From the NCBI RefSeq assembly GCF_009914755.1, contig NC_060932.1: DNA of 64,000 nt, one strand, 5' to 3'. The notes below the pieces were generated by a model. It saw nothing but the letters and a program-made list of their open reading frames with translations, did not search any database and had not been told where the DNA came from. This DNA is from the human T2T-CHM13v2.0 reference genome, Homo sapiens. The position numbers and the translations under genes are program-made. This document shows, piece by piece, positions 32,979-49,705 of the stretch. The first letter of the stretch is position 1; each line of letters starts with the position of its first letter.

Positions 32979-33475
32979 GTGTCTTAGTCTGTTCTCTGCT
33001 GCTATAACAATACCACACACCAGATAATTTATAAAGAAAAGTTTCTTCGGCTCATGGTTCTGGAGGCTGCAAAGTCCAGCAGCATGGCGCCAGCATCTGG
33101 TGTGGCCCTGCTTGCTGTGTTCTTCCATGGCAGAAAGCGGGAGGGCAAGAGAGTGCACACAAGACAGCTCACTTTTATAACAAAGCCACTCCCACGATAA
33201 CTCACACACTCCTGAGATAGCAACATTAATCCATCCATGAGAGCAGAGCCCTCATGACCTAGTCACCTCTCACAGGTCCCACCTCTCAACACTGCCACAA
33301 GGCAATTATTAAATTCCAAAATGAGTTTTGGTGGGGACATTTAAACCATAGCATTCCACCTAGGGCCCCCAAAACTCCCATTCTTCTCACATACAAAATG
33401 CTCTCATTCCATCCCAATAGCCCCAAAGTCCTAACACATTCCCACATCAACTCAAAAGTCCAAAGTCCAGTCTTT
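32979..33475 (-). mobile_element. MaLR LTR (MST-like) with adjoining internal-sequence fragment
   Basis: TGTCTTAGTCTG..GCTATAACA start, AAACCATAGCA LTR end at about 33353, then CTCACATACAAAAT..CCCCAAAGTC..TCAACTCAAAAGTCCAAAGTCC as in MST/THE1 internal sequence. Confidence 0.8.
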
Positions 33476-34429
33476 GGACGGGATTCTTCTGGGAAGGGAG
33501 TGTGTAGGCACAGGTGCTCAGCACTCCAACAGCACTGAAATAGCAGAGTCAGCACCTGCCCTCCCTGTCACCTCCCCCTCCCAACCCCACCACCTGGGGG
33601 TGTCTCTATGGGGAGGGGCTGTGAACACCCAGCCTGCATCCCCACAAAGAACCACCCTCAGCCACCCCTCCACTGAGAGATGGCCACCCCAAGACTCAGG
33701 TGCCCTTGTGGGAGGGACCTGGACTGGGAGCAGGGCCACTGGGGCAGGCCCTGGAGTGTGTCTGTCCTCTGGAGGAGAGCATGGGCCCTCTGGACCTCAC
33801 AGACTTTATGGGGAAGGGCAAGATGGGAGCAGGGCTGGGGTGGGGAGCCCAGGACCAGGCTGCACTGAGCCCCAACATGCCCTCTAATGTCACCTGGCAT
33901 GAGCCTCCTGATTCCCACCTCGACCCTGGGACCTCAGCCCCACGGGAACCAAGGCAGAAAGGGAAGGGTTCCTTGGCCCCTGGATGCCTGGCGTTTCTCT
34001 TTGTTGAACTTCCTCTTCCTCCTTATGAAGGGCCTTTCACCCCTTGTCCACCCTCTTCACCCCTTCCTCACCCAACAGCCACAGGAGTCACGCAGCTTTG
34101 ACCTGTCTCACCTGCCCCCTCCTGTTGTTCCTCCCCCAGCTCCGCCCAGAGAGATGGAGACAGAGGGCCAAAGAGCAGGAGATCGCTGGACACTCGCCGA
34201 AGAGCGGGAGATCGCTGGACACTCGCCGTTGGCATCATGTGGGGTGCTCCATGGCTTCCAATTGGCCAAATTCTTTTCAGTGTTAAAATGCTGTAAAATA
34301 TAAAACGTATGTAATTTCTTGACAAAAATAATACTATTTCAGGTTTGACTCTTTATGAAGTTTCTGTACTAACCTGAACTCTCCCTGGAGTTGAAAGACC
34401 CTTGGCAACTAGAAAAGAGCCCTGACACC

Positions 34430-35530
34430 TGGGAGGCTGGGAACAGCCCACAGGACTGCGCCACCCTCACTTCCGACACCAACTATAGAAGCCCAGGCTC
34501 CTGGCGGCCACCTCAGATGTGATTCTCTAGGAGGGCCCCAGTGCCCCTGGAAGCCATTATACCCGTGACTGTGGATTCCTACGGGGAAAAGATGTAGATT
34601 AAAATCAGCCTGGCGGGAGGATCCCTTGAGCCCAAGAGTTCAAGACTAGCCTGGGAAACATGGCAAGACACCATCTCAGAAAGAAAAGAAAAGGGAAGGG
34701 GAGGGGAGGGGAGGAGAGGGGAGGGGAAGGGAGGGGAGGGAAGGGTGGGGAAGTGAAGGGAGGGGAGGGAAGGGTGGGGAAGTGAAGGGAAGGGAGGGGA
34801 AGAGAGGGGAGGGGAGTGGAGGGTGGCGGGGAGGGGAGTGGAGGGTGGCGGGGAGGGGAGTGGAGGGTGGCGGGGAGGGGAGTGGAGGGTGGCAGGGAGG
34901 GGAGTGGAGGGTGGGGAGGGAGGGGAGTGGAGGGCAGGGGGGAGGGGAGGGGAGGGGAGGGGAGGGAGAAGTTAGCCGGTTGTGGTGGTGCATGCCTGTG
35001 GTCCCAGCTACTTGCAAGGCTGATGTGGGTGGATGGCATGAACTGGGAGGTCGAGGCTGCAGTGAGCTGTGACTGTAGCCCTGTACTGCAGCCTGAGTGA
35101 CAGAGAGAGACCCTGTCTCAAAAAATATAAAAAATAAAACCAGAATGGAAAGAGGTGCCTGGGACAGAGCCCAGGAGGGTCCAGACACAGAGCTCCGGGT
35201 TGTCCTCCCCTGGGGTCATGGACAGAGCTAGGCCCCGTCCCTCCCTTAGTGATGTGGGTCAAGGCACATGGAACATCAACAACCAAGGTAGCTCCTGCCT
35301 TGGGGTTTGTCTCGTGGTCCTGGTTGGCGCCCACATGGCTGAGCCGTCTCCAGCCCTTCTGGAGGCAGAGCTGATGCCACATAGCCCAAAGCCTCCACTG
35401 AAGTCACATAGGACCATAGGTGTGGCCTGAGGCCGCAGGTGGACTAGGACATTCTCACCAGGTCGGACGTTCAGGGCCTAGTGGTGACCTCCCAGGAGCC
35501 CAGGGGAGAGGCCAGGCCATCTTTGGCCGA
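34430..35530 (-). mobile_element. Degenerate ERV LTR (MER21-like), split by an Alu
   Basis: AGATTAAAATCAG..(Alu)..AGAGCCCAGGAGGGTCCAGACAC..GTTGTCCTCCCC resembles antisense MER21; boundaries approximate. Confidence 0.5.
34611..35139 (+). mobile_element. 5'-truncated AluJ-like element with the central linker expanded into a G-rich repeat
   Basis: Left arm 34611-34680, purine/G tract 34681-34970, right arm and A tail 34972-35139. Confidence 0.85.
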
Positions 35531-37042
35531 GGTCACACTCTGCACACACACCACCCTAAACAATTTCCAGTGTGGCTTCTGTCCACTGGTTGCCCATCTA
35601 GATCCTTCCTTCCTCCTTCCCAAATGCATTGCGGCTTCTGTCCACTGGTTGCCCACGTAGATCCTTCCTCCCTCCTTCCCATATGCGTCCAGGCTTTTGG
35701 CACTGGGCAGGGGCAGAGGCAACATGGGGCCGTGGTGTTCCTGGGCTCAGCTTTACAATCGTGGCATGCCCCTGGCCGTCTCTTGCCCCTTCTGGGTAGC
35801 AGCCTGGAGTGTCAAGAAATCCAGAAGGTCTGGAATGAACAGGTGCACCCAGCCGCCAGCTGCATGCTTCCCTGACAGGAGACTGCCCCCCACATTTGCA
35901 GGGCCTCTGTTATATCAACCTTGCTTTATAGTGACTCATACACTCTCCCAAGCCCATCACTTTCCCTGCAACCCCCAGTGGCACCACCAGCCCTCAACAG
36001 TGACCCTGCTGGGACTGAGAGACTTAAACTCGGTTGAGCCTTGAAGGCAACAGAGGGGCCCAGGTGTCTGCCCTCTCCCCCATACACCAGCTCCGTGAGA
36101 CCGGCGGGATTTTATGGAAAGGCGCTTGCCCCTATGGGGATCTGACCCGGGCTCCCTGGCTCAGAGGCCTCCCACCAAACTGGGTCTGCGGGAAGAACCT
36201 CTAGGGGCTTCCTGGGTGTTCCTACCCCCAGACTCAATTCTTTTCCCCAAACTGAGGCAAGCAAGGACCGTCTCTGTGCCTCAGTTTCTCCACGCTACAG
36301 TGAAGGGGTGAGACTGAGTGGTCTGTGATAACTAGATGGGCAGGAGCAGTGAGGGGTGGAGAGGGGCCGATGGCAGGGAACACCCTGTTCTGGGACCTGT
36401 TCTTCAGGCTGAGAGACAGCTGCACAGGGTCTGGGCCCCTCTGCCCCCGACCACCCACCCCTCCAGCCTCCGGCCTCTTTCCTTGGGAACAGAGTGACAC
36501 AGCTGCACCTCCAGTTAACTGAAGAGTTCTGATGGCCTGTTCCACAATTACAGGGAGTAACTTTTTACTAAAAGGGAAAAGCATCAACAGCTTCCAGCTT
36601 TTCATGTGAGAAGTAGTACTCCAAGACAAATGACTGCTTTCAGGCAGCACCGTGGTGCCCAGCTTCCTGTTCCTGCCAATTTCCTCTCCGGTTCTTCCAG
36701 CGGCTTTGTTATTTAAAAGAAATGCAAGGGAAGAGTGGGGCGGAGGCGGCCCTTTCACCGTGAAGAGCCCTGCTCAGCGCCCTGCGCCATGGGTGACGAC
36801 ATTTCCTGGCAGCAGGTGGCTCTCTCTGCTTAGTCTCCTCTTGTTTCCTGCTCTCCCAGGGCCCCTCGCTGCTGCAGGAGCAGTGAGCTCAGTGCCAGAA
36901 CCCTGCAGGTGCAATGCACCCGGCCTCCCAGCAGGGCTCAGCTGACACCACCCACCAGCTGACCCCGCAGCTTGGCCCGGGATCCCCAGGAGCAGGGCAA
37001 CCCCACCAGAGGGGTGGGAAACTTCCGGCAGCAAATGACCAT

Positions 37043-37388
37043 GATGGTTGTGAGGGTCAACCTTGCCGGGGTACTGCTCTCAGTCACTCAATCAAATCTT
37101 AACAGAGGTGTTGTGCCGAAGGTCTGTCGTAGGTGCTTTCAGGAAGAGCATCCTTGGGAACCTGGGTGGCCTGGTTGAGTCCCTTGAAAGGCCATAAAAG
37201 CAGAGCTAAGGCTTCCCAGATGCAGACGAAATAACACCCTCACGTGCCTGTTTCAGCCCCTTCCCCAAGGTTCTGGCCTGCCCTGTAGATTTTGGACTGG
37301 CTCAGCAGCCCCTACGTTGAGTAAAACAATTCCTTGCAATGAATTTCCTGTCTCCTGTCAGTCCTGTTTCTCATTGAACACTGATGGG
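37043..37388 (+). mobile_element. ERVL LTR (MLT2-like)
   Basis: GTCAACCTTG..AATCAAA..CTTGAAAGGCC..GCCCTGTAGATTTTGGACT..CAATTCCTT..CTGTTTCTC pattern. Confidence 0.6.
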
Positions 37389-37424
37389 TAGGGGCTGATC
37401 CCTAACCCAGGCCATCTCTTTTTT

Positions 37425-37994
37425 CCCCTCAGAATCCAGTGCCCCCCCAAAGGCAGAGGAGGCTGACGTCCCGCAGCCCCTCAGAATCCAGTGTCCCCAC
37501 AAAGGCAGGGGAGGCTGACCTCTCACAGCCCCTCGAAATCCAGAGTCCCCCCAAAGTCAGGGGAGGCTGACCTCCCGCAGCCCCTCGGAATCCAGTGTCC
37601 CCACAAAGTCAGGGGAGGCTGACGTCCTGCAGCCCCTCGGAATCCAGTGTCCCCACAAAGGCAGGGGAGGCTGACGTCCCGCAGCCCCTCGGAATCCAGT
37701 GTCCCCACAAAGGCAGGGGAGGCTGACCTCCCGCAGCCCCTCGGAATCCAGTGTCCTCACAAAGGTGGGGGAGGCTGATGTCCCACAACCCCTAGGAATC
37801 GTGTCTCCACAAAGGCAGGGGAGCCTGACCTCCCACAGCCCCTCGGAATCCAGTGCCCCCATAAAGGCAGGGGAGGCTGACCTCCCACAGCCTCTTGGAA
37901 TCCAGTGTCCCCAAAAAGGCAGTGGAGGCTGACCTCCCGCAGCCCCTCGGAATCCAGTGTCCCCACAAAGGCGGGGGAGGCTGATGTCCCGCAG
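37425..37994. repeat. 52-bp VNTR, about 11 copies
   Basis: CCCCTCGGAATCCAGTGTCCCCACAAAGGCAGGGGAGGCTGACCTCCCGCAG with starts at 37425, 37477, 37529, 37581, 37633, 37685, 37737 and onward. Confidence 0.95.
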
Positions 37995-38584
37995 GGCATC
38001 AAGTTACCCTTGTTTCCAAGATCTTCAGCACAGATGCTCTGAGGATAGATGCCCTGCTTTGCAGATGAGGAAACTGAGGCTCAGAGAGACCAAGTTCATG
38101 ATCTGGCAACCAGGAATGGCCAGGGTCCCCTCCCAGCTGGGGTCTGCACTGACTAGGTCCACAGGGCTCCGGAGCCTGAGATGGCTGTGTGGGCCAAGCC
38201 CTAGTTGTAATCCCCCCATGCACCCAGCTGTACACCCCACGTGCCAGTAGGACTTACAGAGGGGCAGGCCTGAGCTCAGCATGAACAGGGCTGCCCCAGT
38301 CAGCAGTCACCCTCACTGATGGCCACCTCGGGCCTGGAGGCAGGGCTGAGCTAGGCCTAGTGGGCTGCAGTGGGGCTGTAGTGGGGCTGCAGTGTGGATC
38401 CCTGAGGGTGCTTCCCCCTGAGGATCCAGGACCCTGATGGAGGCTGCCCTGTTGGTGCTCCCCCGAGCCCCCGGAGACCTCTCACTACACCCATGGGGTC
38501 TCCAGGGTCACCCTCTGGGCCGGGGGACCTGTGTCTGCAGCTCCACCCCTGCCCAGCCCAAGCACACAGAAGAAACAACATGAA

Positions 38585-39401
38585 CACTCCAGGAAGTTTC
38601 AGTGTTTTATTAACAAAATCTTACAAAAAGAGTCTGTCTCTGGGGTAAGGTGCACAGGGCCTGGACCGACATTTAAGGCCTGGTCTGTGTGGGGCAAGGG
38701 GCAGGGGTTGGCCACAGCCTCATGAGGTTTCCAGGGTCTTCACAGGCTCCAGGGCTTCCCCAAAGCCTGTGCCAGCCTTGAGGATTGGTTATGGCTTATG
38801 TGCAAAAATAAAATCTGTGGGGCTGGCAGGGTGTGGGCTGAAGACTTGTCAGAGTGGTCTGCAGGGCTGGTCCCCCAGTGGACAAGGCAGAACGATGAAC
38901 CCTGAGCCAGCACCTGCTTAGGCTGCAGACGCTAGTGGCCCACCAGCACCAGGGTTCTGGTGTCGGGGCAGGGCAGAATGCCTGGAAGCGCCCCAGGAGC
39001 CATGGCTTCTGGGATGTCCTTCCTGCAGCTGAGCTCAGGGCTGCTGGGCAGGGGTAGGAGCTGTGGCCCCAGCCTTGGGGCTCATGAAAGCCTCTGGCAG
39101 AGAGGATGGCCTGGCAGCGGGCGGGGTTTCCCTGCTGGGAGGGAGGCAGGGCCCGACTCCTGCTGCAGTGGCTCTGGGGACGGGCAGCTGGCGGCCAGCG
39201 GGGCGGGCTTAGTGGCAGGCCCTGGTCCTCGCGCTGGCGCTCAGGGCTAAGCTGGGGCTCCTGCCCTCTGCTGCAGCCGACTCCTCTCTGTAGCCCCCCT
39301 CTGGGCTGTCCTGGGACTTCGCCTCCCACGCAGGCAGCCTGCAAGGTGAGGGGTGGGTGGTGCCCAGCACAGCAGCAAAGACTTTGTGGGAACCTTGAGA
39401 C
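38585..39401 (-). other. ARC: ARC exon 3 (3'UTR)
   Basis: Acceptor CTCTCCTGTTCTTTCAG|G at 39402/39401 through to the polyA site. Confidence 0.8.
38606..38611 (-). terminator. ARC: ARC polyadenylation signal AATAAA
   Basis: TTTATT on plus strand, U-rich upstream and GU-rich downstream (TGTTGTTTCTTCTGTGTG) on the minus strand; cleavage estimated near 38585. Confidence 0.88.
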
Positions 39402-39651
39402 CTGAAAGAACAGGAGAGTGGGCAGTGAAGGACCACGCAGGACAGTAGCCAGGGCTCCATGGGGAGGGGCTGGGGCCGGTGGATGGCGCTGGTCTTCCAA
39501 GGCAGAGGCCCCCCGACCCCGTCAGAGCCTCCCAGCGAGCCCGAACACTGGGGAGTGGCCTGGGCCGCAGGGTGTCTGGGGTCTGGGGAGGAGTTCATTT
39601 GGCCGGGACAGCTGATGGTGGGGTCTGGGTGGAAGGGTGGTGCTCCGTTAC
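39402..39651 (-). other. ARC: ARC 3'UTR intron 2 (250 bp)
   Basis: Donor CAG|GTAACG, acceptor TTTCAG|. Confidence 0.8.
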
Positions 39652-39796
39652 CTGTTGTCACTCTCCTGGCTCTGATGGTGCCAGCTGCTGCCTCAGCCGG
39701 ATTTGAGGACTCAGCCCCTCTGGGACCCTCCGCCTGCCATGGGTGAGTCATGAGCTGAGCTCTGATTCTTCTCCAGGCGGGCGTGAATCACTGGAG
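39652..39796 (-). other. ARC: ARC exon 2 (3'UTR, 145 bp)
   Basis: Bounded by TTTCTCTCCCCCAG| and |GTAACG. Confidence 0.78.
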
Positions 39797-40027
39797 CTGG
39801 GGGAGAGAAAGCGCGGGTCCATGTGAGAGCTGGCTCAGCAAACTGCCCCTGCCTCCCACCCGGCCCACTCTCCCCAATGCCCCCTTCCATGATGCCAGCC
39901 CCACCCCATCCCTTTGGCTAACTTGCTGGGGGCCCAAGCCTCAGTGGGCTCTCCTAGAAAACAGCCTCCGGATCCCGCCAGCTCTCAGATGCCCCACAGC
40001 CGGTACTGCCTTGGGGCAGGGGCTCAC
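39797..40027 (-). other. ARC: ARC 3'UTR intron 1 (231 bp)
   Basis: Donor CAG|GTGAGC, polypyrimidine acceptor. Confidence 0.8.
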
Positions 40028-40624
40028 CTGAGGGGCCAGGAAGCACCGGGACATCAGGTCTGCTCTGCTGCGTGTGCGACTTCTACTCTCCCCTGGGAGG
40101 AGGGGGCCGCGCTGCCCGAGGCTGGCCAGCTGCCCTGGGAGGCAGGGAGGGCGTCAGCTGGCTCTGCGGATGCCGGGAGAGGGCGGCGGCGCCGGAAGTC
40201 GAGGCTCCCTCAGCATTGGCTCTGCCCTAGCTTCTGCTCTGGGTGTCCCATGAGCTTGGTGGCCGCTGGCCCCTGCCATCCGGACACTTGGTTTTCTGGA
40301 TGTCCAGAGGGCCTGGGTGTTGTAGCAGAATGAGGAAGCTGGGGTGTTCTGTGATGGCCTGAGAGTGTGGAGGGTGGGGTCCAGGCCGGAAAGACAGACG
40401 GAGGGAGGGTGATGGGTGGAGCCCTGCAGGGGGGAGGGCTCTTTGCCGCTGGGTGCGGTGCTCACATCTGGATGACACGAGTGTGTGCGAGTCCGCCCGG
40501 AGCTCGAGGGGGCACCCAGCTGGACCAGGGCTTCCCCTGCAGGAGTCAGCCCCAGCTCAAAAGTCCTGGTGGGCAAAGCCACAGGCTGGATGTAGTGGGC
40601 AGGCTGGGGGCTCCGGGATGCCCT

Positions 40625-41815
40625 CTACTCGGGCTGGGTCCGGTCACTGGCCACGGACTCGCTGTTGGGGGCGGGCGTGAGGGTCTCCGCCTCATCCTCC
40701 ACCGGGAGGTGGGGGCCGGCCGGCTCGGCCGCCTGCTCCAGGTCATCCTGCACCTCCATGCCCCTCTGGATGAGCTGCTCCAGGGTCTTGGGCAGGGGGT
40801 GGCGCAGGAAACGCTTGAGCTTGGGCTGCAGGGTGCCCACCACGTACTGGATGATCTCCTCCTCGTCCGCGTCCACGTAGAGCGTCTGGTACAGGTCCCG
40901 CTTGCGCCACAGGAACTGGTCCAGCGGCTCGCCCTGCTTCTGCGGCAGGTCCAGCTCCCGCTGGATGGCCTCTCGGGACAGCGTGCCCTCGCTGTACTGC
41001 AGGAACTCCTTCTTGAACTCCACCCAGTTCTTCACGGAGCCCTGCTTGAACTCCCACCACTTCTTGGCCGGCCCGTTCATGTGATTCTGGATCTGGGACA
41101 GCCAGTACTCCTCAGAGCCGCCCACCTGCCGCAAGTACTCCTCTAGGTGGCTCAGGAACTCTCGAGGGTCCTCGAAGATCTGCGTGTCCACGCCGGGGCT
41201 GGGCTGCCCGTCCTCGCCGGGGACCCACGGCTGGTACTGCTGGGCCTCGGCGGGCTCCTGCCCGGGCAGCTCGCCAGCGGCTGGGGGCGGGGTGATGGCG
41301 TAGGGGCTGACGGTGTAGTCGTAGCCGTCTGCCTCGTGGCAGTAGCTCTCGGGACCCCCCACGCCCACGGAAACGGTGTGGCGGGCTGACTCGCTGCCCA
41401 CCGGGTACTTGCCGCCCGTGGACTCCAGGCGGTCGGCCCAGCGCTCCAGGCGGTAGAACACCTCGCGCCACACGTGCATCTCGCGCTTGACCCAGCGCTC
41501 CAGGTTGGCGATGGTCTCCTGGCAGCGGCACAGGCAGGCCTTGATGGACTTCTTCCAGCGCTGCGAGTCGCTCGTGGGCACGTAGCCGTCCAGGTTGCTC
41601 TCCAGCTTCCCGACCGACCGGTGCAGCCCCTTCAGCTCGCGCTCCACCTGCTTGGACACCTCGGCCAGCAGGTGCCGGTGCGTCCGCCGCACGTGCTCCA
41701 GCATCTCGGCCCGGCACTTCCCGATCTGCAGGATCACGTTGGGCTTGGCCACCTGCCCGCCCCGCGGCCCGGGGTAGGCGTGGAGCCCGCCGCTGGTCCG
41801 GTGGTCCAGCTCCAT
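40625..41815 (-). CDS. ARC: Activity-regulated cytoskeleton-associated protein (Arc/Arg3.1), Ty3/gypsy Gag-derived capsid protein, 396 aa, uninterrupted CDS
   Basis: MELDHRTSGG..CLCRC..TQIFEDPREFLSHLEEYL..WWEFKQGSVKNWVEFKKEFLQYSEG..LPQKQGEPLDQFLWRKRDLY..SDRTQPE; ATG at 41815-41813, TAG at 40627-40625; very high GC3. Confidence 0.99.
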   Translation of the reverse strand: MELDHRTSGGLHAYPGPRGGQVAKPNVILQIGKCRAEMLEHVRRTHRHLLAEVSKQVERELKGLHRSVGKLESNLDGYVPTSDSQRWKKSIKACLCRCQETIANLERWVKREMHVWREVFYRLERWADRLESTGGKYPVGSESARHTVSVGVGGPESYCHEADGYDYTVSPYAITPPPAAGELPGQEPAEAQQYQPWVPGEDGQPSPGVDTQIFEDPREFLSHLEEYLRQVGGSEEYWLSQIQNHMNGPAKKWWEFKQGSVKNWVEFKKEFLQYSEGTLSREAIQRELDLPQKQGEPLDQFLWRKRDLYQTLYVDADEEEIIQYVVGTLQPKLKRFLRHPLPKTLEQLIQRGMEVQDDLEQAAEPAGPHLPVEDEAETLTPAPNSESVASDRTQPE

Positions 41816-42019
41816 CTGTGCGCAGGTGCTCCGGCAGGCGGCAAACTCCTCGGGGCGGACAGAGGGTGGTCCGGCGCTGGGGTCCGGCGGCCTGGGTCCC
41901 GTGCGGAGCTGCGGGGAGCGCCTGTCTGTCGCTGCGGGCCGGCGGCGGGGCCGGCGGAGCACGCCCGGGGAGGCAGGTCCGGCTCGGCTGCTGCGGAGGG
42001 AGGACGCCGCGCCCGAGCT

Positions 42020-42235
42020 CTGCGCTGAGTCCTGGCCGCCGGCTCTTTATGCAGCCAGCGAGGCCCGTGGGCGGCCGGCTCGCCGAGCCCGGTTTCTCAT
42101 TGGCCCAGCCGCAGGCTCCCCGCCAGCGCCCCGCCCGCGCCCCTGCAGGCCCCGCCCTGCGCCCACTCGGCTCCCGGGCGGCAAGGGACGGGAGGTCCCA
42201 CCCCCTGCACACATGGCGGGGCCAGGATGACTAAT
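42020..42235 (-). promoter_or_regulatory. ARC: ARC core promoter
   Basis: TATA-like CATAAAG near 42045-42052, CCAAT at 42099-42103, several GC boxes; TSS inferred near 42020. Confidence 0.8.
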
Positions 42236-42939
42236 CCCTCCGCTCCGTACCTCCCACCCCGGACGGCGGGGCTCATTCAGCCTGCGGGGACCGAGGGACT
42301 GAGCCGGGCACTGGGCGCCCCTCCCACGCCCCCTCCCGGGCGCTGGGCGGGCTGTCATCTGCTGCCTCCCAGGGTCCCAAGGTGGCCTTCCTCCTCTCCA
42401 CTCGCCTCTCTCTTTGCGGGGCTGGAGGGGGCTGGCGCTGGCCACTGCTCTCCTGGGTCCTCACTGCCCCTGACCCCGCCCACCCAGCTCTGCAGGATGT
42501 GCAGCTGAGCCCGGGAAGGACCCTCACCATCAGCCTCTGTGCCCAGGGGCTCAGCAAGTCTCCATGTGAGCTCCCAGATGTGGCTTTGAGCTCCCACTCA
42601 CTCCTGCCCGGGTCCTGAGTCCAGGTCTTGGGCTCTGTGTGAGGGACGCACAGCCAGGCAGAGGCTCGCTCTGCCTGGCCCTGGCGTTGGTGTGCATGGG
42701 TGACAGGGGCCCACGTGGCAGTGACTGGACAGGGCTGCCCCATGCCCCCATACGCAGGTCTCTGGTGAGGCCCAATACTTTTCTGTGTTTCCAGGGAAAT
42801 CTGGCAGCTGCTACCTGGGGGGCTGGGGTTTGGAGGACATGGAGGGGACATTTAGCCCCCAGTGAAGGGAATTGGGCCCTGAAGACCCTGGCTATATCAA
42901 GAACCTGGCCAGAGGCTCCAAGACTTCTAAGAGGATGGA

Positions 42940-43030
42940 AGAGGGGAGGAGAGAGGGAGACAGGGAGGGAGGTGGAAGGAGGGAAAGGAGAAGGGGAGGG
43001 AGGAGAGGCGAGGAGGGAGAGGGAGGGGGG
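42940..43030. repeat. Polypurine/polypyrimidine tract
   Basis: Nearly pure G/A run. Confidence 0.8.
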
Positions 43031-43080
43031 CCGGTGCTGGCAGCACAGTGCCATCAGGAGAGGCAGAGGGAAGCCAAGCA

Positions 43081-43090
43081 CCATATAAGG
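43081..43090. promoter_or_regulatory. ARC: Proximal serum response element (CArG box)
   Basis: CCATATAAGG = CC(A/T)6GG about 1.06 kb upstream of the TSS, with Ets-like CCGGAAG at 43100-43106. Confidence 0.8.
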
Positions 43091-43342
43091 AGCGGGGCTC
43101 CGGAAGCCGAGACTCCCTCGGGAGGGAGGTCCCTTCTGCCTCCCTGGCAACCTGGCGGGGGTAGGGACGCCCTTCCTGAGTTACTCCAGTGCTGGCTGGA
43201 TAGGCATGGGTCTCAGGTCCTCTGATGTTACCCAGGCAGGGGTGACACACACCATTCCCCACAGCCAGAGGGCCATGAGGACATCATCGCTGACAATCAA
43301 GACATCTTGTTCCTGCTGCCAGCTGCCCTTTCCCTCTCTCAG

Positions 43343-43535
43343 ACACACACATGCTGCACACTCACACCCCCACATACACACTCATAGCCCCCACTCTAAC
43401 CCCACCCCACACACTCATGCCCTCACTCACAGCCCCCACACACACTCATACCCCCCACTCATAGCTCCCACATACACACTCATACCCCCCACTCATAGCT
43501 CCCACATACACACTCATACCCCCCACTCACAGCCC
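43343..43535. repeat. CA-rich low-complexity tract with a 34-bp unit
   Basis: CACACTCATACCCCCCACTCA at 43441, 43475, 43509. Confidence 0.8.
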
Positions 43536-45480
43536 TCAGCTCCCCCCAGCATCCCCTGTCTTATTCAGGCACTCAAGGGCACACAGGTGCCCACTTGCTG
43601 GAATCCCCCCTCCCTGCCAACCCTCTGAGCCCCCCCCCAACCGGCTCTCCCGGGGAGCCCTCTCCCAGCCTCAGAGCCAGTCTGTCTCCTCCTTCCTTCC
43701 GCCCCTGGGGGGGAATGTCTTTCTGGCAAAAAAACTCCCCAAAAATGGCTCTCCTGGCATTTCTAATTAAAGGTAAGTGGGCGGACAGAGAAGGGAGGGC
43801 GGAGGGGCACCGCGGAGCTGGGAGGGGGAGCCAGGCAGAGAAGTCTCCAGCACAGGGACCTTCCCGCTTCTCCACTGCGGAATCCCAGGGAGAGGAGCTG
43901 GGTGGGCACATGCGGGACGGGCAGACGCCAGCAGCCTTGGGTGAGTGCAGCCAGCGGTCACCGAGGGCCACATGTCCGGGTTGGGGCCAGCCTGAGCCTG
44001 TAGGTGTTGTCTGGGTGCTGGGCACTGACCGTGCATGTGTGTCCATTGTGAGAGCCAGCACTTCAATGACCAGGGGCCAGCCCCACCAGGGTTTACAAGC
44101 CCGTGTGGCCTCTGACGTCCCCGCCAGGGCACAGCTCTTAGGCCTCTGGCCAGCAGTGGCCTCCAGCTGCCACCCCCACCCAAGGCATCAGCAAGCTGAC
44201 AAGGAGGCAGGACTGGGGACACGTGAGCCAAGGTCATAGGTGGTGCCGCTGCCTCAGTTCCCTCACCTGTGTGGAGGGAGCCAGGCCTGGAGAAGGGTGA
44301 GTGCCCAAGGTGGCCCGGTGAGCAAGGCAGGGCTGGGCAGGAGCCAGGCCCTTGGTGAGGAATCCTGGCGTCCTCTGCTCAATGCCCCGTGGCCCATCAC
44401 CACCCCTGTCACCTGCTAAACAGCAAGCCAGAAGTGGCCAAGCCGAGACCGGTGGGAGAGCACAGTGCCTGCCCTGGATGGCACGAGGGCAGGCAGCGTC
44501 GGGGGTGCCACGCGGAGCCCCGTCTTCCCCTCCCCAACCCCCTCCAGCAGGGTCTGCAGAGGCTGTGAATGCAGGCCTGAGCTGACCGGTGACAGGCAAC
44601 AGCCGCAGCTGCCAGGAACGCTTAATCGCTGCCCAATTATCGCCCCAGAAGCCCTCACCAAACCCCCGCACTGCAGCCTCGGGAAAGGAGGCCAGGCTGA
44701 CTCCCATCCACCTGGGGCGGGGGCCTCTCCTGACAGGGGCCTGCCCTGCTCCTCTCTCCAGCCCACCCCCACCCCGTGCCCGTCCCTGACAGCCACTGGA
44801 GCAGCATGGCTTGGGGATGCAGGTGGGGGAAGGAACAGGGGAAGGGGGTGGGGGCTAGACCTGCACAAGGAGATTGGGAGCACCTGGGGGATCCCCACTC
44901 TCAAAGCCAACCTGGTCTGCTGCTGCGCAGGTCTGACCACTCTGAGGCCCCACCTGCCTGAGAGGAGGGGTCCTGCAGGGGAGGGTGGGGTAGCCCATGA
45001 CCCCCAGGTTCTGTTCACGGTTGAGATCTCCACCAGGCTCACGACAGCCTCGAAGGACCTCTTAGTGCTGGTTCCTGAGCCCCCACCACCTAGGTTCCCA
45101 GAGGCGTGCGGGTACCTGCTCTGAAAGGCAGGGGCCACCCTGTGCCTTGGGCCTCCCTTCTCCTTCTGGGGTGCCCAGCCGCCTCTGCTCCTGCCTGATC
45201 AGAGCAAAGGGAGTCAGCTCTCTCCCCGCAGCCCCAGACTGTCTCAGCCCTGGCTGACCCACTCCGGCAGGGCCTTTCTGGGTTGCCAGGAGCGTTCACA
45301 GGGCAGCTGCTGACCTGGGGCATCCTGCTGCTCCCCCAGGCTGGCCCTGCTGATCTCGGGTGCCGGCAGTTAGCGCTGCTCAGCAGGGAGAGGCAACCAC
45401 AGGCCCCTTCAGGCCAGAGCTCACACCCACCCCCACTCACACACATGCGCAAACACATGGGCACACGCAGAGGCACACAC

Positions 45481-45607
45481 CTCCCCCATCTCCCCTGCCT
45501 CCAGGCTCTGTCCTCTTTGGAAACAACCCAGAGGGCCCCCAACTCTGCCTTGGCCCCCCACATCACTGTCTTCATAAAGGCCCTTCCTCACCTGCCCACT
45601 GCTGGCC
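45481..45607 (+). repeat. Inverted duplication, arm A
   Basis: Reverse complement of 48955-49081; 112/127 identical by manual ungapped alignment. Confidence 0.92.
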
Positions 45608-48600
45608 ACACACACCTGCCCACCCCACCCTTTGCACACATTCCGGGGCTCCTGCTGCCCTTCTGTGTGGGCTGCGTGGAGTGAGGAGCCGGCAGCAGAG
45701 AAGGAATGAGGCAGTCCCAGGGGTTGGTTCGGGCACCCGCCCCCCACATGTGACCACTCCCCAGCCTTGTGGCCTCATCTGTCACCATCTACTGCCCGGT
45801 GGGGCTGGAAGAGAAGAACCAGGCTGCCCTATGCCCTCAGGGTGCCCATTGCTTGCCCAGGCTGCATGGCCAGACCTGGAGGCCAGCCTCTCAGCCACCT
45901 GCTCCCACCGGGTGTCCCTTGCTGTCCAGCCCAGGGCTCCACAGGCTGCAGGAGCTGCTGACCTCTGACCTCTCTGGGCTCCCAGGCTGGACTCCCACCC
46001 CAGGTATCCTCTTTTCCTGTTGCCTCTTCCTCGCAGGCACAGGGCAAGGCTGTCCCAGCTGCCTGGCCTGGCTGAGTCCCTGCACCACCCTACAGGTGGT
46101 GCCCATAGGTGAACACCTGAGTGTAAGCAGGGCCTGGTCCAGAGCAGACACTGGCGAGGGGTCTGAGGGCTGGAATGGTTCCTGTTCCATTCCTTTCTAG
46201 TCAGGAAACATTGGACAGTTGCTCACCTGAGCCTCAGCTTTCCATCCGTAAAGTGGGTGGCAATGCCAAGGCCTCGAGGGGTGGCCGGGAGCTCCGGGGC
46301 TCCAGGAGCCTCATCCCTGGCCTCGTGCCACCTGGTCTGGCGAGGTTTCTCCCAGCCGTTCCTGCCGGAGCCTCTCGTCAGTGCCAGTCTGGAGCCTGAG
46401 AAGTGGCCGGGGCCCCGCCCTCAGCTCCTCAGGAGAGGTTCTGGGGGCTTCTTCGCCCTGCCCACCTCCTCTGTTCTCTGAGGCCTGGCCAGCGTCCGCC
46501 CCCAGTGTCGCTCCTGCAGTGGTGGCACAGACCTGGTGGCGAGTTGCAGGGGCAGTTGGCGGATATGGGTCCAGGCAGCTGGAGGACACCAGGGCCCTGC
46601 TGTCTCCGTCCTGAGGGCCACCTGCAGTGGGGACGGGCCAGGGTAGGCAGAGAGCAGAGCTGAGGATGAGGGTCCCAGTCCACCTCCAGAGCATGGGGGG
46701 GTGCACAGCAGGCCAGGACTGAGCCTGGGGAAAAGACCAAGGAGGCACAAAGGACTGAGGTGGGAAAGTAGAGGGGCAGAGGAGAGGCCGGGGCGCAGCT
46801 GCTCCTGCTTGGCCACCCAGGTAGATGCTCTCGCCTCAGGTTCCACAGGGGTCCTTAGGGGTGGGAGGACCTGCCCCAGGCTGCTGAGCGGGCAAGTGAC
46901 AGAGTTGAGGCCGTCGTCCATCAACCCAGCTGCCCGACCTCCAGCCTCATAGCTGCTGCAGCCCGACAGCCTCTGTGAGAGCCCTGGAGGGGACCAGGGT
47001 GGAATGGGGCAGGGTTCTTAGGAGACCCCCATCGGTGATGGGCACAGTGCTTGGTGTTCCCAAGGTGGCAACAAGGGCTGGGAAAGACCCTGAGGGATGA
47101 GAGGGGCCCCAAGGAGTGGGCTGGCTCTGGCACTGGTGCAGAAGATGGAAGCTGATGGCCTGGGGGCCAGTGGGAGATGGGTGCAGGGCGGGTGGGCCTA
47201 GGGGCCTCCGACACCCCCTCCCTCTGCAGCCTCTGCAGCCTCCCCAGCCCCTGGGGCTGCGGGAACATTCTTTCTGCCCCCCACCCCCACCATCCCCCCC
47301 CCCCCACAACTGCTCCTTCCTTCCTCTTCTCCTGTTGGCAGGCTCTGTGCTGCTGCGTCCCTGTCCCTGGAACAAGCAGCCTGTTCGTTCCGGGCCCCCA
47401 CACACCAGACCCTCCTCCTTCCTCCTTCCTCCTTCCTGCCTCCTGCCTCAGCGCCTCCCAGTCCAGCCTCCAAGGAAAGTTCTGTATTTTTCCAGCCAGT
47501 CTGGCCTAGCTGCACAGGCGTCCCTTCAGGGCCGGTGGGGTCACGAGAGCCCAGGCCTCCACCGACCATGGGCAGACAAGGGACATGCGCTCCTCACCAC
47601 CGCCACCCCAGCCATGCACGGAAGGGGAAATCGAGGTCCAGAGAGGGCCAGGGATTAGCCTGAGCCACACAGCAAGGAAGGCCAGAGCCACGGCAGGAAG
47701 TGTGTCTGGGGTCTCTGGGGTCTTGGGGAGACCTCCAACCTCCCAGAGGTGTCCCATGGACACTTCCATTTCCTGTGTGACTGTAGGTGAGTTCCCTAAG
47801 CCTCCACGCCCTCTCTGGCCTCAGTTTCCTCACTGAGGCAGTGCTCCCAGGAAGCTCCAGCTCCGCCCTGCCCCGTCGGTGCGGTGATCAGTCATTCCGT
47901 CAACAAAAGTGCCCGAGACAGGCTTGGCAGGTACTAAGCCAGATGGAGGCATGACCCTGGGAGGGGGTGGAGTGCAAAGAGGTGCAGAGCACCCCATAAA
48001 ATAAGGGGTTGGGCATCACCATGCCCCCTGCAGGCTTTGCCACCCATCAGCACCAGCAAGTCGCCCCACCCAGAGCTCTGCAAAGAACACCGCCAGCTCT
48101 TTCCTTCCGGGTGCTCTTGCTGGGGGGTCAGGCTGGTCCCCTCTGACTGGCACTGCCCACGCTGGGACATGGGAGGAGGGCCATCTGGGCACTGCAGGAG
48201 CAGATCCTGGGTGCACATGGGGAGACAGGTGTGCTGGCAGGAACAGCAGGCGGGGCTGAGCTCAGGAGGCGCCTCACAGCGGGTGCCTCCAGCCTGGTCT
48301 GAGCACGGGATGAAGAACCAGGCACCGCTCATCGTGCATCTCCACAAGGCACTGTGTGACTTCATGCAAGCCGCTCAACCTCTCTGGCCCCACGTCCTTG
48401 TCCACAGGGGCAGAGTGGACTGAATGGAGGCTGAGGTCCCTCTCAGCTTGGGTGGTGTGGCAGAGGGTGAGGAGGAGCCCATGGGCCCTGGATCACCAGC
48501 CTCCCTCCACCCAGAATGCCCCGTCCACTCCACTGCCCACCACCCTCTGTGCAATTGACAAACGTCCTGGTGTTAACGCCTAAGCATAAAGAGTCGGCTT

Positions 48601-48762
48601 TGCTGTAAGTGTTGTCTGAACCTGGGCCCAACGTCACCGCCTCCAGGAAGCCTTCCTGACCTCCTCGTTCCATGTTGATTGAGTCTTCTGCGTGCCTTGG
48701 CCTCCCCTGTGTGTGCTACCAGAGGAGCCCCTGAGCACAAATGCAGTCTTCCTGCATGTCTC

Positions 48763-49649: not shown

Positions 49650-49705
49650 CTCACTTCCGGAGCCATAAAAGGAGAGACGCTGAGAATAGCGCGGCTGTGA
49701 CGCGC
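49650..49705 (-). promoter_or_regulatory. ARC: SARE (synaptic activity-responsive element) enhancer
   Basis: Minus strand reads CGTCA (CRE half, 49698-49702), CTATTCTCAG (MEF2, 49680-49689), CCTTTTATGG (SRF, 49663-49672), CCGGAAGT (TCF/Ets, 49653-49660): the motif order of the rodent SARE. Confidence 0.93.

What the first reader, a model, noticed from the sequence alone, without database searches (positions are those of the whole stretch)
40625..41815. Domesticated retrotransposon Gag forming a neuronal virus-like RNA transfer system (Arc)
Seen: an intronless ORF with an N-terminal coiled-coil region, CLCRC, a Pro/Gly linker and a bilobed capsid-like region (FEDPREFL..WWE..W.EFKKEFL..QKQGEPLDQF, resembling the Gag major homology region). 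I see no CCHC knuckle, pol or flanking LTRs. Established: Arc derives from Ty3/gypsy Gag, assembles capsids, packages RNA and moves between cells in extracellular vesicles. This is the most remarkable system in the window, but it is already described.
Basis: partly seen in the sequence, partly recalled or inferred. Interest (0 to 1): 0.8.

Follow-up and report, generated by a model that had tools for sequence, protein, structure and literature searches.

The report
Human ARC, a domesticated Gag gene

Summary
The ORF at 40625-41815 (-) is real and encodes the 396-aa human ARC protein. It matches Pfam Arc_MA, Arc_capsid_dom and Arc_C at E 1e-44 to 1e-59, and solved human/rat Arc structures. All five quoted motifs are present. 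There is no CCHC knuckle, no pol relic in 136 flanking frames and no LTR-like repeat.

The CA region reaches the Retrotrans_gag cutoff (24.3 vs 24.1 bits). Its 265 relatives include Gag-Pol polyproteins. In an unbiased fold search of 48,161 chains, the first 30 ranks are all Arc, retrotransposon or retroviral capsids, or domesticated Gags. Two GT-AG introns in the 3'UTR explain ARC's published NMD control.

I tested one published open question, the origin of the N-terminal coiled-coil domain. A weak match to fish Ty3/gypsy Gag N-termini failed a reversed-sequence control, so the origin stays unresolved. ARC's nearest CA relatives carry zinc knuckles, which hints that ARC lost NC (moderate tree support).

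Verdict: observation confirmed, interpretation supported, already known.

The parts
38593..42023 (-). ARC gene (3 exons; the whole coding sequence is in exon 1)
   Evidence: Hub annotation. Splice sites, poly(A) signal and TATA-like box were read.
40625..41815 (-). ARC coding sequence, 396 codons plus TAG
   Evidence: translation; 100% identical over residues 205-361 to human Arc chains 7r1z/7r23; a 100%-identity, 100%-coverage cluster named ARC.
41354..41680 (-). N-terminal coiled-coil domain (Pfam Arc_MA, residues 46-154); origin unknown
   Evidence: PF19284 E 1.3e-59; no retroelement homologue found.
41522..41536 (-). Cys cluster CLCRC (residues 94-98), the published palmitoylation site
   Evidence: position. 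review passage on palmitoylation of N-terminal-domain cysteines and membrane insertion.
41459..41479 (-). Coil-2 oligomerisation motif MHVWREV (residues 113-119)
   Evidence: chain 7r24_A carries seven Ala exactly here; the review says a 7-residue substitution in Coil-2 disrupts self-association and capsid formation.
41201..41413 (-). Pro/Gly-rich flexible linker (residues 135-205)
   Evidence: 30% P+G; no secondary structure predicted for 134-216 (low-confidence model).
40991..41176 (-). CA N-lobe (Arc_capsid_dom, residues 214-275), four helices; peptide-binding lobe
   Evidence: PF21395 E 1.6e-44. model; solved N-lobe complexes with stargazin, CaMK2A and GKAP peptides.
40739..40984 (-). CA C-lobe (Arc_C, residues 278-359)
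   Evidence: PF18162 E 8e-47. Z 10.7 to the PEG10 CA C-terminal domain, 8.6 to MLV, 8.1-8.5 to HIV and RSV CA C-terminal domains at rmsd 2.3-2.9.
40913..40942 (-). QKQGEPLDQF (residues 292-301), most conserved C-lobe block; MHR-like in position
   Evidence: Gln 94%, E296 71%, F301 89% in 111 distant relatives.
40628..40738 (-). Acidic, probably disordered C-terminal tail (residues 360-396), standing where the nearest Gag relatives carry a CCHC knuckle
   Evidence: no knuckle in ARC; 41 of 150 relatives have one after CA; no secondary structure predicted after residue 362 (low-confidence model).
39797..40027 (-). 3'UTR intron 1 (GT..AG); its exon junction lies about 597 nt after the stop codon
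   Evidence: sequence. abstract: two conserved 3'UTR introns target Arc mRNA to NMD.
39402..39651 (-). 3'UTR intron 2 (GT..AG)
38606..38611 (-). AATAAA poly(A) signal, about 13 nt before the annotated 3' end
42045..42051 (-). TATA-like CATAAAG about 25 nt upstream of the annotated start site; a CCAAT box lies near 42105
49653..49702 (-). Candidate SARE enhancer: CRE half-site CGTCA, MEF2-like CTATTCTCAG, CArG CCTTTTATGG, Ets core CCGGAAGT; 7.6 kb upstream of the start site
   Evidence: sequence; the published Arc SARE has a half CRE and a MEF2 site with 2 mismatches. SARE is about 100 bp and about 7 kb upstream in rodents.

Best explanation
This is the human immediate-early gene ARC (Arc/Arg3.1). 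SHOWN HERE: its C-terminal half (residues ~205-365) is a two-lobed, all-helical capsid (CA) domain that descends from the Gag of a Ty3/gypsy (Metaviridae) LTR retrotransposon. The gene has kept neither the nucleocapsid zinc knuckle, nor pol, nor LTRs. It has gained a host-type promoter with upstream SRF-type sites, and two 3'UTR introns. FROM THE LITERATURE (not tested here): neuronal activity drives a burst of transcription through the distal SARE and proximal SREs. The spliced 3'UTR makes the mRNA an NMD target, so the burst is short. The protein works in two modes. As a monomer or small oligomer it is a postsynaptic hub whose N-lobe pocket binds peptides of stargazin, CaMKII, GKAP and NMDA-receptor subunits. 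As a high-order oligomer, nucleated by the Coil-2 motif at residues 113-119 and by RNA, it forms virus-like capsids that enclose RNA, including its own mRNA, and leave the cell in extracellular vesicles. INFERRED: with NC gone, RNA binding and multimerisation have passed to the basic, palmitoylated N-terminal coiled coil, whose evolutionary origin is unknown.
For: Identity: Arc_MA 1.3e-59, Arc_capsid_dom 1.6e-44 and Arc_C 8e-47, all far above their cutoffs. phmmer against PDB chains gives E 1.6e-246 to full-length rat Arc, and 100% identity to human Arc CTD chains over 205-361. 45 proteins at E <= 1e-20 are named ARC in mammals, marsupials, birds, turtles, squamates, tuatara, frogs and caecilians. 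Gag descent: the CA region alone scores 24.3 bits on Retrotrans_gag, cutoff 24.1. 265 proteins match at E <= 1e-3 among 1.84 billion, most of them matching only residues ~205-365. Of the 125 aligned sequences, 80 match Retrotrans_gag, 45 Ty3_capsid, 16 zf-CCHC, 8 gag-asp_proteas, 3 rve and 2 RVT_1. P0052, P0105 and P0122 are Gag-Pol proteins with protease and integrase; P0052 and P0105 also have RT. Fold: CA model pLDDT 92.1. In the Foldseek-independent search of 48,161 chains, all 17 chains with Z >= 8 and all of ranks 1-30 are Arc, dArc, Copia, PEG10, RSV, MLV, HERV-K, MOAP1, Ty1-derived Drt2, PNMA2, EIAV, HTLV, HIV, Ty3 or FIV capsids; the first unrelated chain is rank 31 at Z 6.4 with 65 residues aligned. 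Ty3 capsid 6r24_B: Z 8.6, 147 aligned. Loss of retroelement parts. Gene anatomy. Function from print: capsids and EV release (listing; review passages), RNA binding and chaperone activity (abstract), NMD via 3'UTR introns (abstract), SARE and SREs.
Against: On the whole protein, Retrotrans_gag (21.2 bits) and Ty3_capsid (13.3 bits) fall below their curated cutoffs, and the pass with CA alone is marginal. BFVD gave no match at E <= 1e-3 (best 0.025). Whole-domain superpositions on non-Arc capsids have high rmsd (8-12 A) because the lobes hinge differently; the tight fits (rmsd 2.1-3.0) are per lobe. No solved structure of an assembled mammalian ARC capsid appeared among the PDB hits, only domains and fly dArc capsids. 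The primary 2018 paper could not be read.
Confidence: 0.93

Rival explanations
1. ARC's physiological work is done mainly by non-capsid forms: a monomer or small-oligomer hub that binds postsynaptic proteins through the N-lobe pocket and drives AMPA-receptor endocytosis. On this view capsid formation and RNA transfer are a retained but minor property, or one seen mainly in vitro.
For: Many solved N-lobe complexes with stargazin, CaMK2A and GKAP peptides. The review says this pocket is absent from dArc and Ty3, so it is a host-side innovation, and frames function as depending on oligomeric state. Henriques et al. [quoted passage not shown] No assembled mammalian capsid structure among the PDB hits.
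Against: Papers reporting ARC capsid secretion and EV-mediated effects (listing and starts of abstracts, including PNAS 2024 and a 2026 preprint). Conservation of both CA lobes across tetrapods and of the Gag core residues is more than a peptide-binding pocket alone would need.
Confidence: 0.3
2. The ORF is a decaying retrotransposon relic, or part of a still-mobile element, rather than a host gene.
For: Gag-derived CA.
Against: No pol, protease, integrase or LTRs within about 7 kb on either side. An intact ORF kept across named tetrapod orthologues at 42-100% identity. Host gene features: TATA-like box, spliced 3'UTR, poly(A) signal.
Confidence: 0.01
3. The N-terminal domain also descends from the ancestral Gag (a metaviral pre-CA domain), so the whole protein is Gag.
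For: Fish Ty3/gypsy Gag proteins (P0065, P0035, P0140, P0109) have a two-helix N-terminal domain with a similar C-x-E...ER...W-R-E pattern. The ARC N-terminal HMM ranks them first (P0140 E 1.4e-4, P0065 6e-3 in a database of 130), and the reciprocal HMM hits 9 of 44 ARC N-termini at 12 bits or more. Pfam names the domain Arc_MA.
Against: Reversed ARC N-termini score higher against the fish HMM than true ones (max 17.9 vs 15.4 bits, median 11.2 vs 6.0). hhalign probability is 4.2%. By my reading of the coordinates, the register differs by about 21 residues between the P0140 and P0065 alignments. Pfam Arc_MA does not hit P0035 or P0065 at E <= 1e-3. ARC 1-204 against the closest CA relative P0006 gives a best E of 3.3. 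Atlas best score 0.77, within the range of shuffled or reversed proteins. Henriques et al. 2024 also found no match in Repbase or in animal genomes.
Confidence: 0.12

Closest known systems
ARC / Arg3.1 of tetrapods (human, rat, bird, reptile and amphibian orthologues)
   Same: It is this gene: 100% identity to human Arc CTD chains over residues 205-361 and to a full-length cluster named ARC. Same three Pfam domains and same 3'UTR intron arrangement as published.
   Different: Nothing.
Drosophila dArc1 / dArc2
   Same: A bilobed Gag CA domesticated for neuronal use. phmmer E 2.4e-6 to 1.2e-5. Z 11.2-11.8 with about 24-27% identity. Their capsid structures are solved (6tap, 6taq).
   Different: An independent domestication from another Ty3/gypsy lineage. 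dArc lacks the large N-terminal domain and the N-lobe peptide pocket; dArc1 keeps a zinc knuckle (review passages).
Ty3/gypsy (Metaviridae) Gag, e.g. the yeast Ty3 capsid 6r24 and vertebrate elements
   Same: Same CA fold (Z 8.6 over 147 residues; Foldseek probability 1.00). Retrotrans_gag profile. Relatives include Gag-Pol proteins. The closest relatives, P0006 and P0008, are 39-40% identical over 146-190 residues with no gaps.
   Different: ARC has no NC knuckle, protease, RT, RNase H, integrase or LTRs, and carries an unrelated N-terminal coiled coil.
Other mammalian domesticated Gag genes: PEG10, PNMA2, MOAP1, RTL family
   Same: CA C-terminal-domain fold (PEG10 Z 10.7 / 9.9, MOAP1 8.3, PNMA2 capsid 8.1). 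Some also form capsids (passage).
   Different: Separate domestication events with different N-terminal domains. PEG10 keeps NC, protease and a frameshift.
Retroviral CA (HIV-1, RSV, MLV, HERV-K, HTLV-1)
   Same: Two-domain helical CA. C-terminal-domain superpositions at Z 8.1-8.8, rmsd 2.3-2.9. A conserved polar/aromatic block at the start of the C-terminal domain.
   Different: 7-20% identity. No sequence-level match. No MA, NC or p6, no Env, no proteolytic maturation. Equivalence with the MHR is unproven.

Membership tests
ARC (Arc/Arg3.1) orthologue group | Arc_MA N-terminal domain | tested here: met
   PF19284 E 1.3e-59, 199.4 bits vs cutoff 28.5, residues 46-154.
ARC (Arc/Arg3.1) orthologue group | Arc N-lobe and C-lobe | tested here: met
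   PF21395 at 150.2 bits and PF18162 at 157.5 bits. Model against 7r24_A: Z 16.8, rmsd 2.4, 147 aligned.
ARC (Arc/Arg3.1) orthologue group | Sequence identity to experimentally studied human ARC | tested here: met
   100% over residues 205-361 to 7r1z/7r23 human chains. A full-length 100% cluster.
ARC (Arc/Arg3.1) orthologue group | Single coding exon followed by two conserved 3'UTR introns | tested here: met
   GT..AG at 40027/39797 and 39651/39402. Published arrangement in the abstract.
Ty3/gypsy (Metaviridae) Gag capsid domain | Retrotransposon Gag profile match at the curated cutoff | tested here: inconclusive
   Whole protein 21.2 bits, below 24.1. CA region alone 24.3 bits, at or above 24.1. 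Ty3_capsid 13.3 bits, below 29.1. 80 of the 125 aligned sequences match Retrotrans_gag and 45 match Ty3_capsid at E <= 1e-3.
Ty3/gypsy (Metaviridae) Gag capsid domain | Two-lobed all-helical CA fold shared with solved retroelement capsids | tested here: met
   Ranks 1-30 of 48,161 chains are all Arc or Gag capsids. Ty3 6r24_B Z 8.6 with 147 aligned. Ty3 N-terminal domain 6r22 Z 7.2, rmsd 3.4.
Ty3/gypsy (Metaviridae) Gag capsid domain | Homologues that are parts of Gag-Pol polyproteins | tested here: met
   P0052, P0105 and P0122 carry protease and integrase next to the matching CA; P0052 and P0105 also carry RT.
Autonomous LTR retrotransposon or endogenous retrovirus | pol (protease, RT, RNase H, integrase) next to gag | tested here: not met
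   0 of the 135 non-ARC frames in 33263-48715 match any such family.
Autonomous LTR retrotransposon or endogenous retrovirus | Flanking long terminal repeats | tested here: not met
   No direct repeat pair longer than 43 nt brackets the gene in 30000-52000.
Autonomous LTR retrotransposon or endogenous retrovirus | Nucleocapsid CCHC zinc knuckle after CA | tested here: not met
   No knuckle pattern and no Cys after residue 159. No zf-CCHC hit.
Retroviral major homology region (MHR) | Conserved motif at the start of the CA C-terminal domain, structurally equivalent to the retroviral MHR | tested here: inconclusive
   The block is conserved (Gln 94%, E296 71%, F301 89%) and lies where HIV and RSV C-terminal-domain chain ranges begin to align. 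No residue-level superposition was available. The Ty3 'MHR' was shown not to be equivalent.

The most novel reading that the evidence does not exclude
ARC's direct metaviral ancestor had a CA-NC Gag with a CCHC knuckle; the nearest CA relatives, P0006 and P0008, have one. At domestication ARC lost NC, pol and the LTRs. It gained, from a non-Gag or still unsampled source, the N-terminal coiled coil that now supplies RNA binding, membrane binding and the oligomerisation switch. This differs from the published picture, in which the ARC-like ancestral proxy lacked NC. It also points to elements like P0006, which its source assigns to a sturgeon assembly (flagged as possible contamination), as better proxies for the ancestor.
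Probability: 0.35. Interest if true: 0.35.

Novelty: already known. Interest (0 to 1): 0.15.

Why it matters
ARC is the textbook case of a retrotransposon capsid gene turned into a host gene for synaptic plasticity, memory and possibly cell-to-cell RNA transfer. Confirming it here adds nothing new to biology. The parts still open in print are the origin of the N-terminal domain, whether the ancestor had a nucleocapsid, and how much ARC's function in vivo depends on capsids.

Tried and rejected
1. Folding the whole protein from a single sequence gave mean pLDDT 44.8.

2. N-terminal domain homology to fish Ty3/gypsy Gag N-termini. It looked promising: reciprocal HMM hits at E 1e-4 and a shared C-x-E..ER..W-R-E pattern. 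It was rejected by the reversed-sequence control and by hhalign at 4.2% probability. Residue shuffling (0 of 880 at 12 bits or more) would have passed it wrongly, because shuffling destroys the heptad periodicity.

3. ESM Atlas search with residues 20-140, leaving out Arc_MA clusters: best score 0.77, no named family.

4. ARC 1-204 against the closest CA relative P0006: nothing (best E 3.3).

5. BFVD viral fold library: no match at E <= 1e-3. The top rows were a metavirus ORF1, an endogenous-retrovirus Gag, caulimovirid coat proteins and HIV Gag at E 0.025-0.3.

6. CArG-box count: 3 found against 1.75 expected, and 24 of 100 shuffles gave at least 3, so the count is not significant. Only the positions and the neighbouring sites are informative.

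8. Complex prediction was not used, because ARC self-association is already documented experimentally.

9. The whole genome was not searched for paralogues.
Full report
OBSERVATION. Window 40625-41815 on the minus strand translates without interruption into 396 residues, ending in TAG. There is no CCHC knuckle, and the only cysteines are 34, 94, 96, 98 and 159. The 135-205 linker is 30% Pro+Gly against 15% overall. An open frame of this length proves little here. The locus is 67-74% G+C, and 17 ORFs of 100 aa or more overlap 38000-43000, including a 366-aa ORF in another frame of the same strand that matches no family. What makes the frame real are its matches.

IDENTITY. Pfam gives Arc_MA (residues 46-154, E 1.3e-59), Arc_capsid_dom (214-275, 1.6e-44) and Arc_C (278-359, 8e-47), each more than 100 bits above its cutoff. 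Against PDB chains, the protein matches full-length rat Arc at E 1.6e-246 and is 100% identical over residues 205-361 to human Arc CTD chains. N-lobe complexes with stargazin, CaMK2A and GKAP peptides, and a coil fragment covering 99-132, are also found. The full-length chain 7r24_A carries seven alanines exactly at 113-119, where the window encodes MHVWREV. A review describes this substitution as abolishing self-association and capsid formation. Forty-five proteins at E <= 1e-20 are named ARC in mammals, marsupials, birds, turtles, squamates, tuatara, frogs and caecilians. No fish protein is among them, within the 217-693 aa that were searched. This agrees with the hub's annotation of the window.

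GENE ANATOMY. The coding sequence sits in one exon. Two introns follow in the 3'UTR (39797-40027 and 39402-39651), both with canonical CAG|GT donors and pyrimidine-tract AG acceptors. The first junction lies about 597 nt after the stop codon, far beyond the distance that triggers nonsense-mediated decay. Paolantoni et al. 2018 (abstract read) state that two conserved 3'UTR introns target Arc mRNA to NMD. An AATAAA lies at 38606-38611, a TATA-like CATAAAG about 25 nt upstream of the annotated start site, and a CCAAT box near 42105.

(1) Profiles. On the whole protein the generic Retrotrans_gag model scores 21.2 bits (cutoff 24.1) and Ty3_capsid 13.3 (cutoff 29.1). On residues 205-365 alone, Retrotrans_gag reaches 24.3 bits, just over the cutoff.

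(2) Relatives. phmmer against 1.84 billion representatives finds 265 proteins at E <= 1e-3, 31 at <= 1e-10 and 6 at <= 1e-30. Most of the distant ones match only residues ~205-365. Of the 150 listed, 41 carry a C-x2-C-x4-H-x4-C knuckle. I aligned the CA region with the first 124 of the 150. Among those 125 sequences, 80 match Retrotrans_gag, 62 Arc_capsid_dom, 47 Arc_C, 45 Ty3_capsid, 16 zf-CCHC, 8 gag-asp_proteas, 3 rve, 3 Integrase_H2C2, 2 RVT_1 and 2 RT_RNaseH. P0052, P0105 and P0122 are Gag-Pol proteins with protease and integrase, and P0052 and P0105 also have RT.

(3) Fold. With that alignment the CA region folds at mean pLDDT 92.1 into eight helices. After Arc's own entries, Foldseek ranks dARC1 (E 2e-4), the Ty3 capsid (1.2e-2, probability 1.00), the PNMA2 capsid (2.9e-2) and HIV-1 CA (0.056 and weaker). 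In the Foldseek-independent search of 48,161 representative chains, all 17 chains with Z >= 8 and all of ranks 1-30 are Arc, dArc, Copia, PEG10, RSV, MLV, HERV-K, MOAP1, Ty1-derived Drt2, PNMA2, EIAV, HTLV, HIV, Ty3 or FIV capsid proteins. The first unrelated chain is rank 31, at Z 6.4 with 65 residues aligned. Whole-domain rmsd to non-Arc capsids is high (8-12 A) because the lobes hinge differently. Per-lobe fits are tight: PEG10 CA C-terminal domain Z 10.7, rmsd 2.8, 84 aligned; MLV Z 8.6; RSV Z 8.5; HIV Z 8.1. BFVD gave nothing at E <= 1e-3. So the refuting outcome, no profile or structural similarity to Gag CA, did not occur.

WHAT WAS LOST. Of 136 stop-to-stop frames of 70 aa or more in 33263-48715, only the ARC frame matches Pfam, apart from one sub-cutoff CYSTM hit. 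No direct repeat longer than 43 nt brackets the gene. So NC, pol and the LTRs are all gone.

THE QUOTED MOTIFS ARE FAMILY SIGNATURES. In 111 distant rows of the alignment (under 45% identity and at least 100 aligned residues; 13 of the 124 other rows dropped), conservation is: W253 97%, a Gln at the 292-294 position 94%, F267 93%, F301 89%, P217 87%, W264 86%, F220 81%, L308 80%, A250 79%, E296 71%. The Gln...E296...F301...K305...L308 block sits at the loop and first helix of the C-lobe (model helix 298-312). That is where chain ranges of retroviral CA C-terminal domains begin to align, so 'MHR-like' is fair as a statement of position. I could not superpose residues. Dodonova et al. 2019 (passages read) found that the motif formerly called MHR in Ty3 is not structurally equivalent to the retroviral one, so equivalence stays unproven.

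AN OPEN QUESTION TESTED: THE N-TERMINAL DOMAIN. Henriques et al. 2024 (passages read) report that the CA is 'unambiguously of metaviral origin'. They also report that an ARC N-terminal HMM matches no Repbase metavirus and no animal gene other than ARC, and they call the domain's origin 'mysterious'.

I noticed that two Retrotrans_gag proteins, P0065 and P0035, align into ARC's second N-terminal helix. Their sources name both as ARC-like proteins of a catfish. Their family of 51 proteins at E <= 1e-5 includes members named Ty3 Gag-Pol and members with protease, RT or integrase domains. Twenty-two members share one two-helix N-terminal domain.

An HMM built from 44 ARC N-termini ranks this family first among 130 Gag N-termini (P0140 E 1.4e-4, P0065 6e-3). 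The reciprocal HMM scores 9 of 44 ARC N-termini at 12 bits or more, best 15.4. The control rejects the lead. Reversed ARC N-termini score higher (max 17.9, median 11.2 bits) than true ones (max 15.4, median 6.0), and hhalign gives 4.2% probability. By my reading of the coordinates, the P0140 and P0065 alignments also differ in register by about three heptads. Residue shuffling (0 of 880 at 12 bits or more) would have been misleading, because it destroys the heptad periodicity. The Atlas search (best 0.77) and ARC 1-204 against the closest CA relative (best E 3.3) also gave nothing. The published negative result stands.

A HINT ABOUT THE ANCESTOR. I built a CA tree of 158 rows and 151 columns with IQ-TREE (quick search, LG+G4, SH-aLRT). 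Thirteen ARC orthologues were kept as representatives, and the other ARC orthologues and fragments were left out; rows with under 125 matched CA positions were dropped. The ARC clade, which also takes in the 138-aa fragment P0012, has support 98. Its nearest neighbours are P0006 and P0008 (support 75), then P0009 (support 89). P0006 and P0008 are 39-40% identical to ARC CA over 190 and 146 residues without a single gap, and both carry a CCHC knuckle. P0009 ends 21 residues after its CA match, so it cannot be judged. P0006 is labelled 'UNVERIFIED_CONTAM' from a sturgeon assembly, so its host is uncertain. Henriques et al. state that their ARC-like ancestral proxy lacks NC. These data suggest instead that ARC lost a knuckle, but support is moderate and the tree is unrooted.

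MECHANISM. Shown here: the domain architecture, the Gag descent of the CA half, the loss of NC, pol and LTRs, the NMD-prone transcript structure, and upstream SRF-type sites. Taken from print: activity-driven transcription through the SARE and SREs; NMD-limited expression; N-lobe hub binding; Coil-2 and RNA-facilitated oligomerisation into capsids released in extracellular vesicles; and RNA recognition through basic regions of the N-terminal and CA domains, with chaperone activity (abstract). Inferred: the N-terminal coiled coil took over the roles of MA and NC. How much of ARC's function in vivo needs capsids remains debated.

VERDICT. The system is already known.

Noticed in passing
window 49653-49702 (-), 7.6 kb upstream of the ARC start site: A tight cluster on the gene strand: CRE half-site CGTCA (49698-49702), MEF2-like CTATTCTCAG (49680-49689, two mismatches to consensus), CArG CCTTTTATGG (49663-49672) and Ets/TCF core CCGGAAGT (49653-49660). 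It fits the published make-up and position of the Arc SARE enhancer. It is not in the RefSeq functional-element list supplied with the finding.
   Followed up: partly
window 43081-43090 and 43739-43748: The other two CArG boxes of the 64-kb window lie 1.06 and 1.72 kb upstream of the ARC start site, close to the ~0.9 and ~1.5 kb SREs described in rodents. The count of 3 in the window is not itself above chance (24 of 100 shuffles gave at least 3).
   Followed up: partly
window 37425-37994: A minisatellite of 11 copies of a 52-nt unit, 88% matching, about 600 bp beyond the ARC poly(A) site.
   Followed up: no
protein P0101: A 1089-aa Maestro HEAT-repeat protein whose first 36 residues are 81% identical to ARC 1-36. 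It is probably a chimeric gene model joining the start of ARC to a downstream MROH-type gene. In this window MROH4P lies downstream of ARC on the same strand.
   Followed up: no
alignment A1 (124 of the 150 hits listed, plus the CA region): Eight of the 125 aligned sequences also carry a SAP domain and seven a PHD finger, so other Gag-CA fusions exist. Which proteins and organisms they come from was not examined.
   Followed up: no
window 41115-42230 (-): A 372-codon stop-free frame overlaps the 5' half of the ARC coding sequence in another frame of the same strand. It has no family match and is taken as a by-product of the ~70% G+C content.
   Followed up: partly
window 38052-38094 and 50668-50710: A 43-nt direct repeat pair at 84% identity. 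I recall the shared ACAGATGAGGAAACTGAGGC motif as the core of MIR SINEs. They are not LTRs.
   Followed up: no
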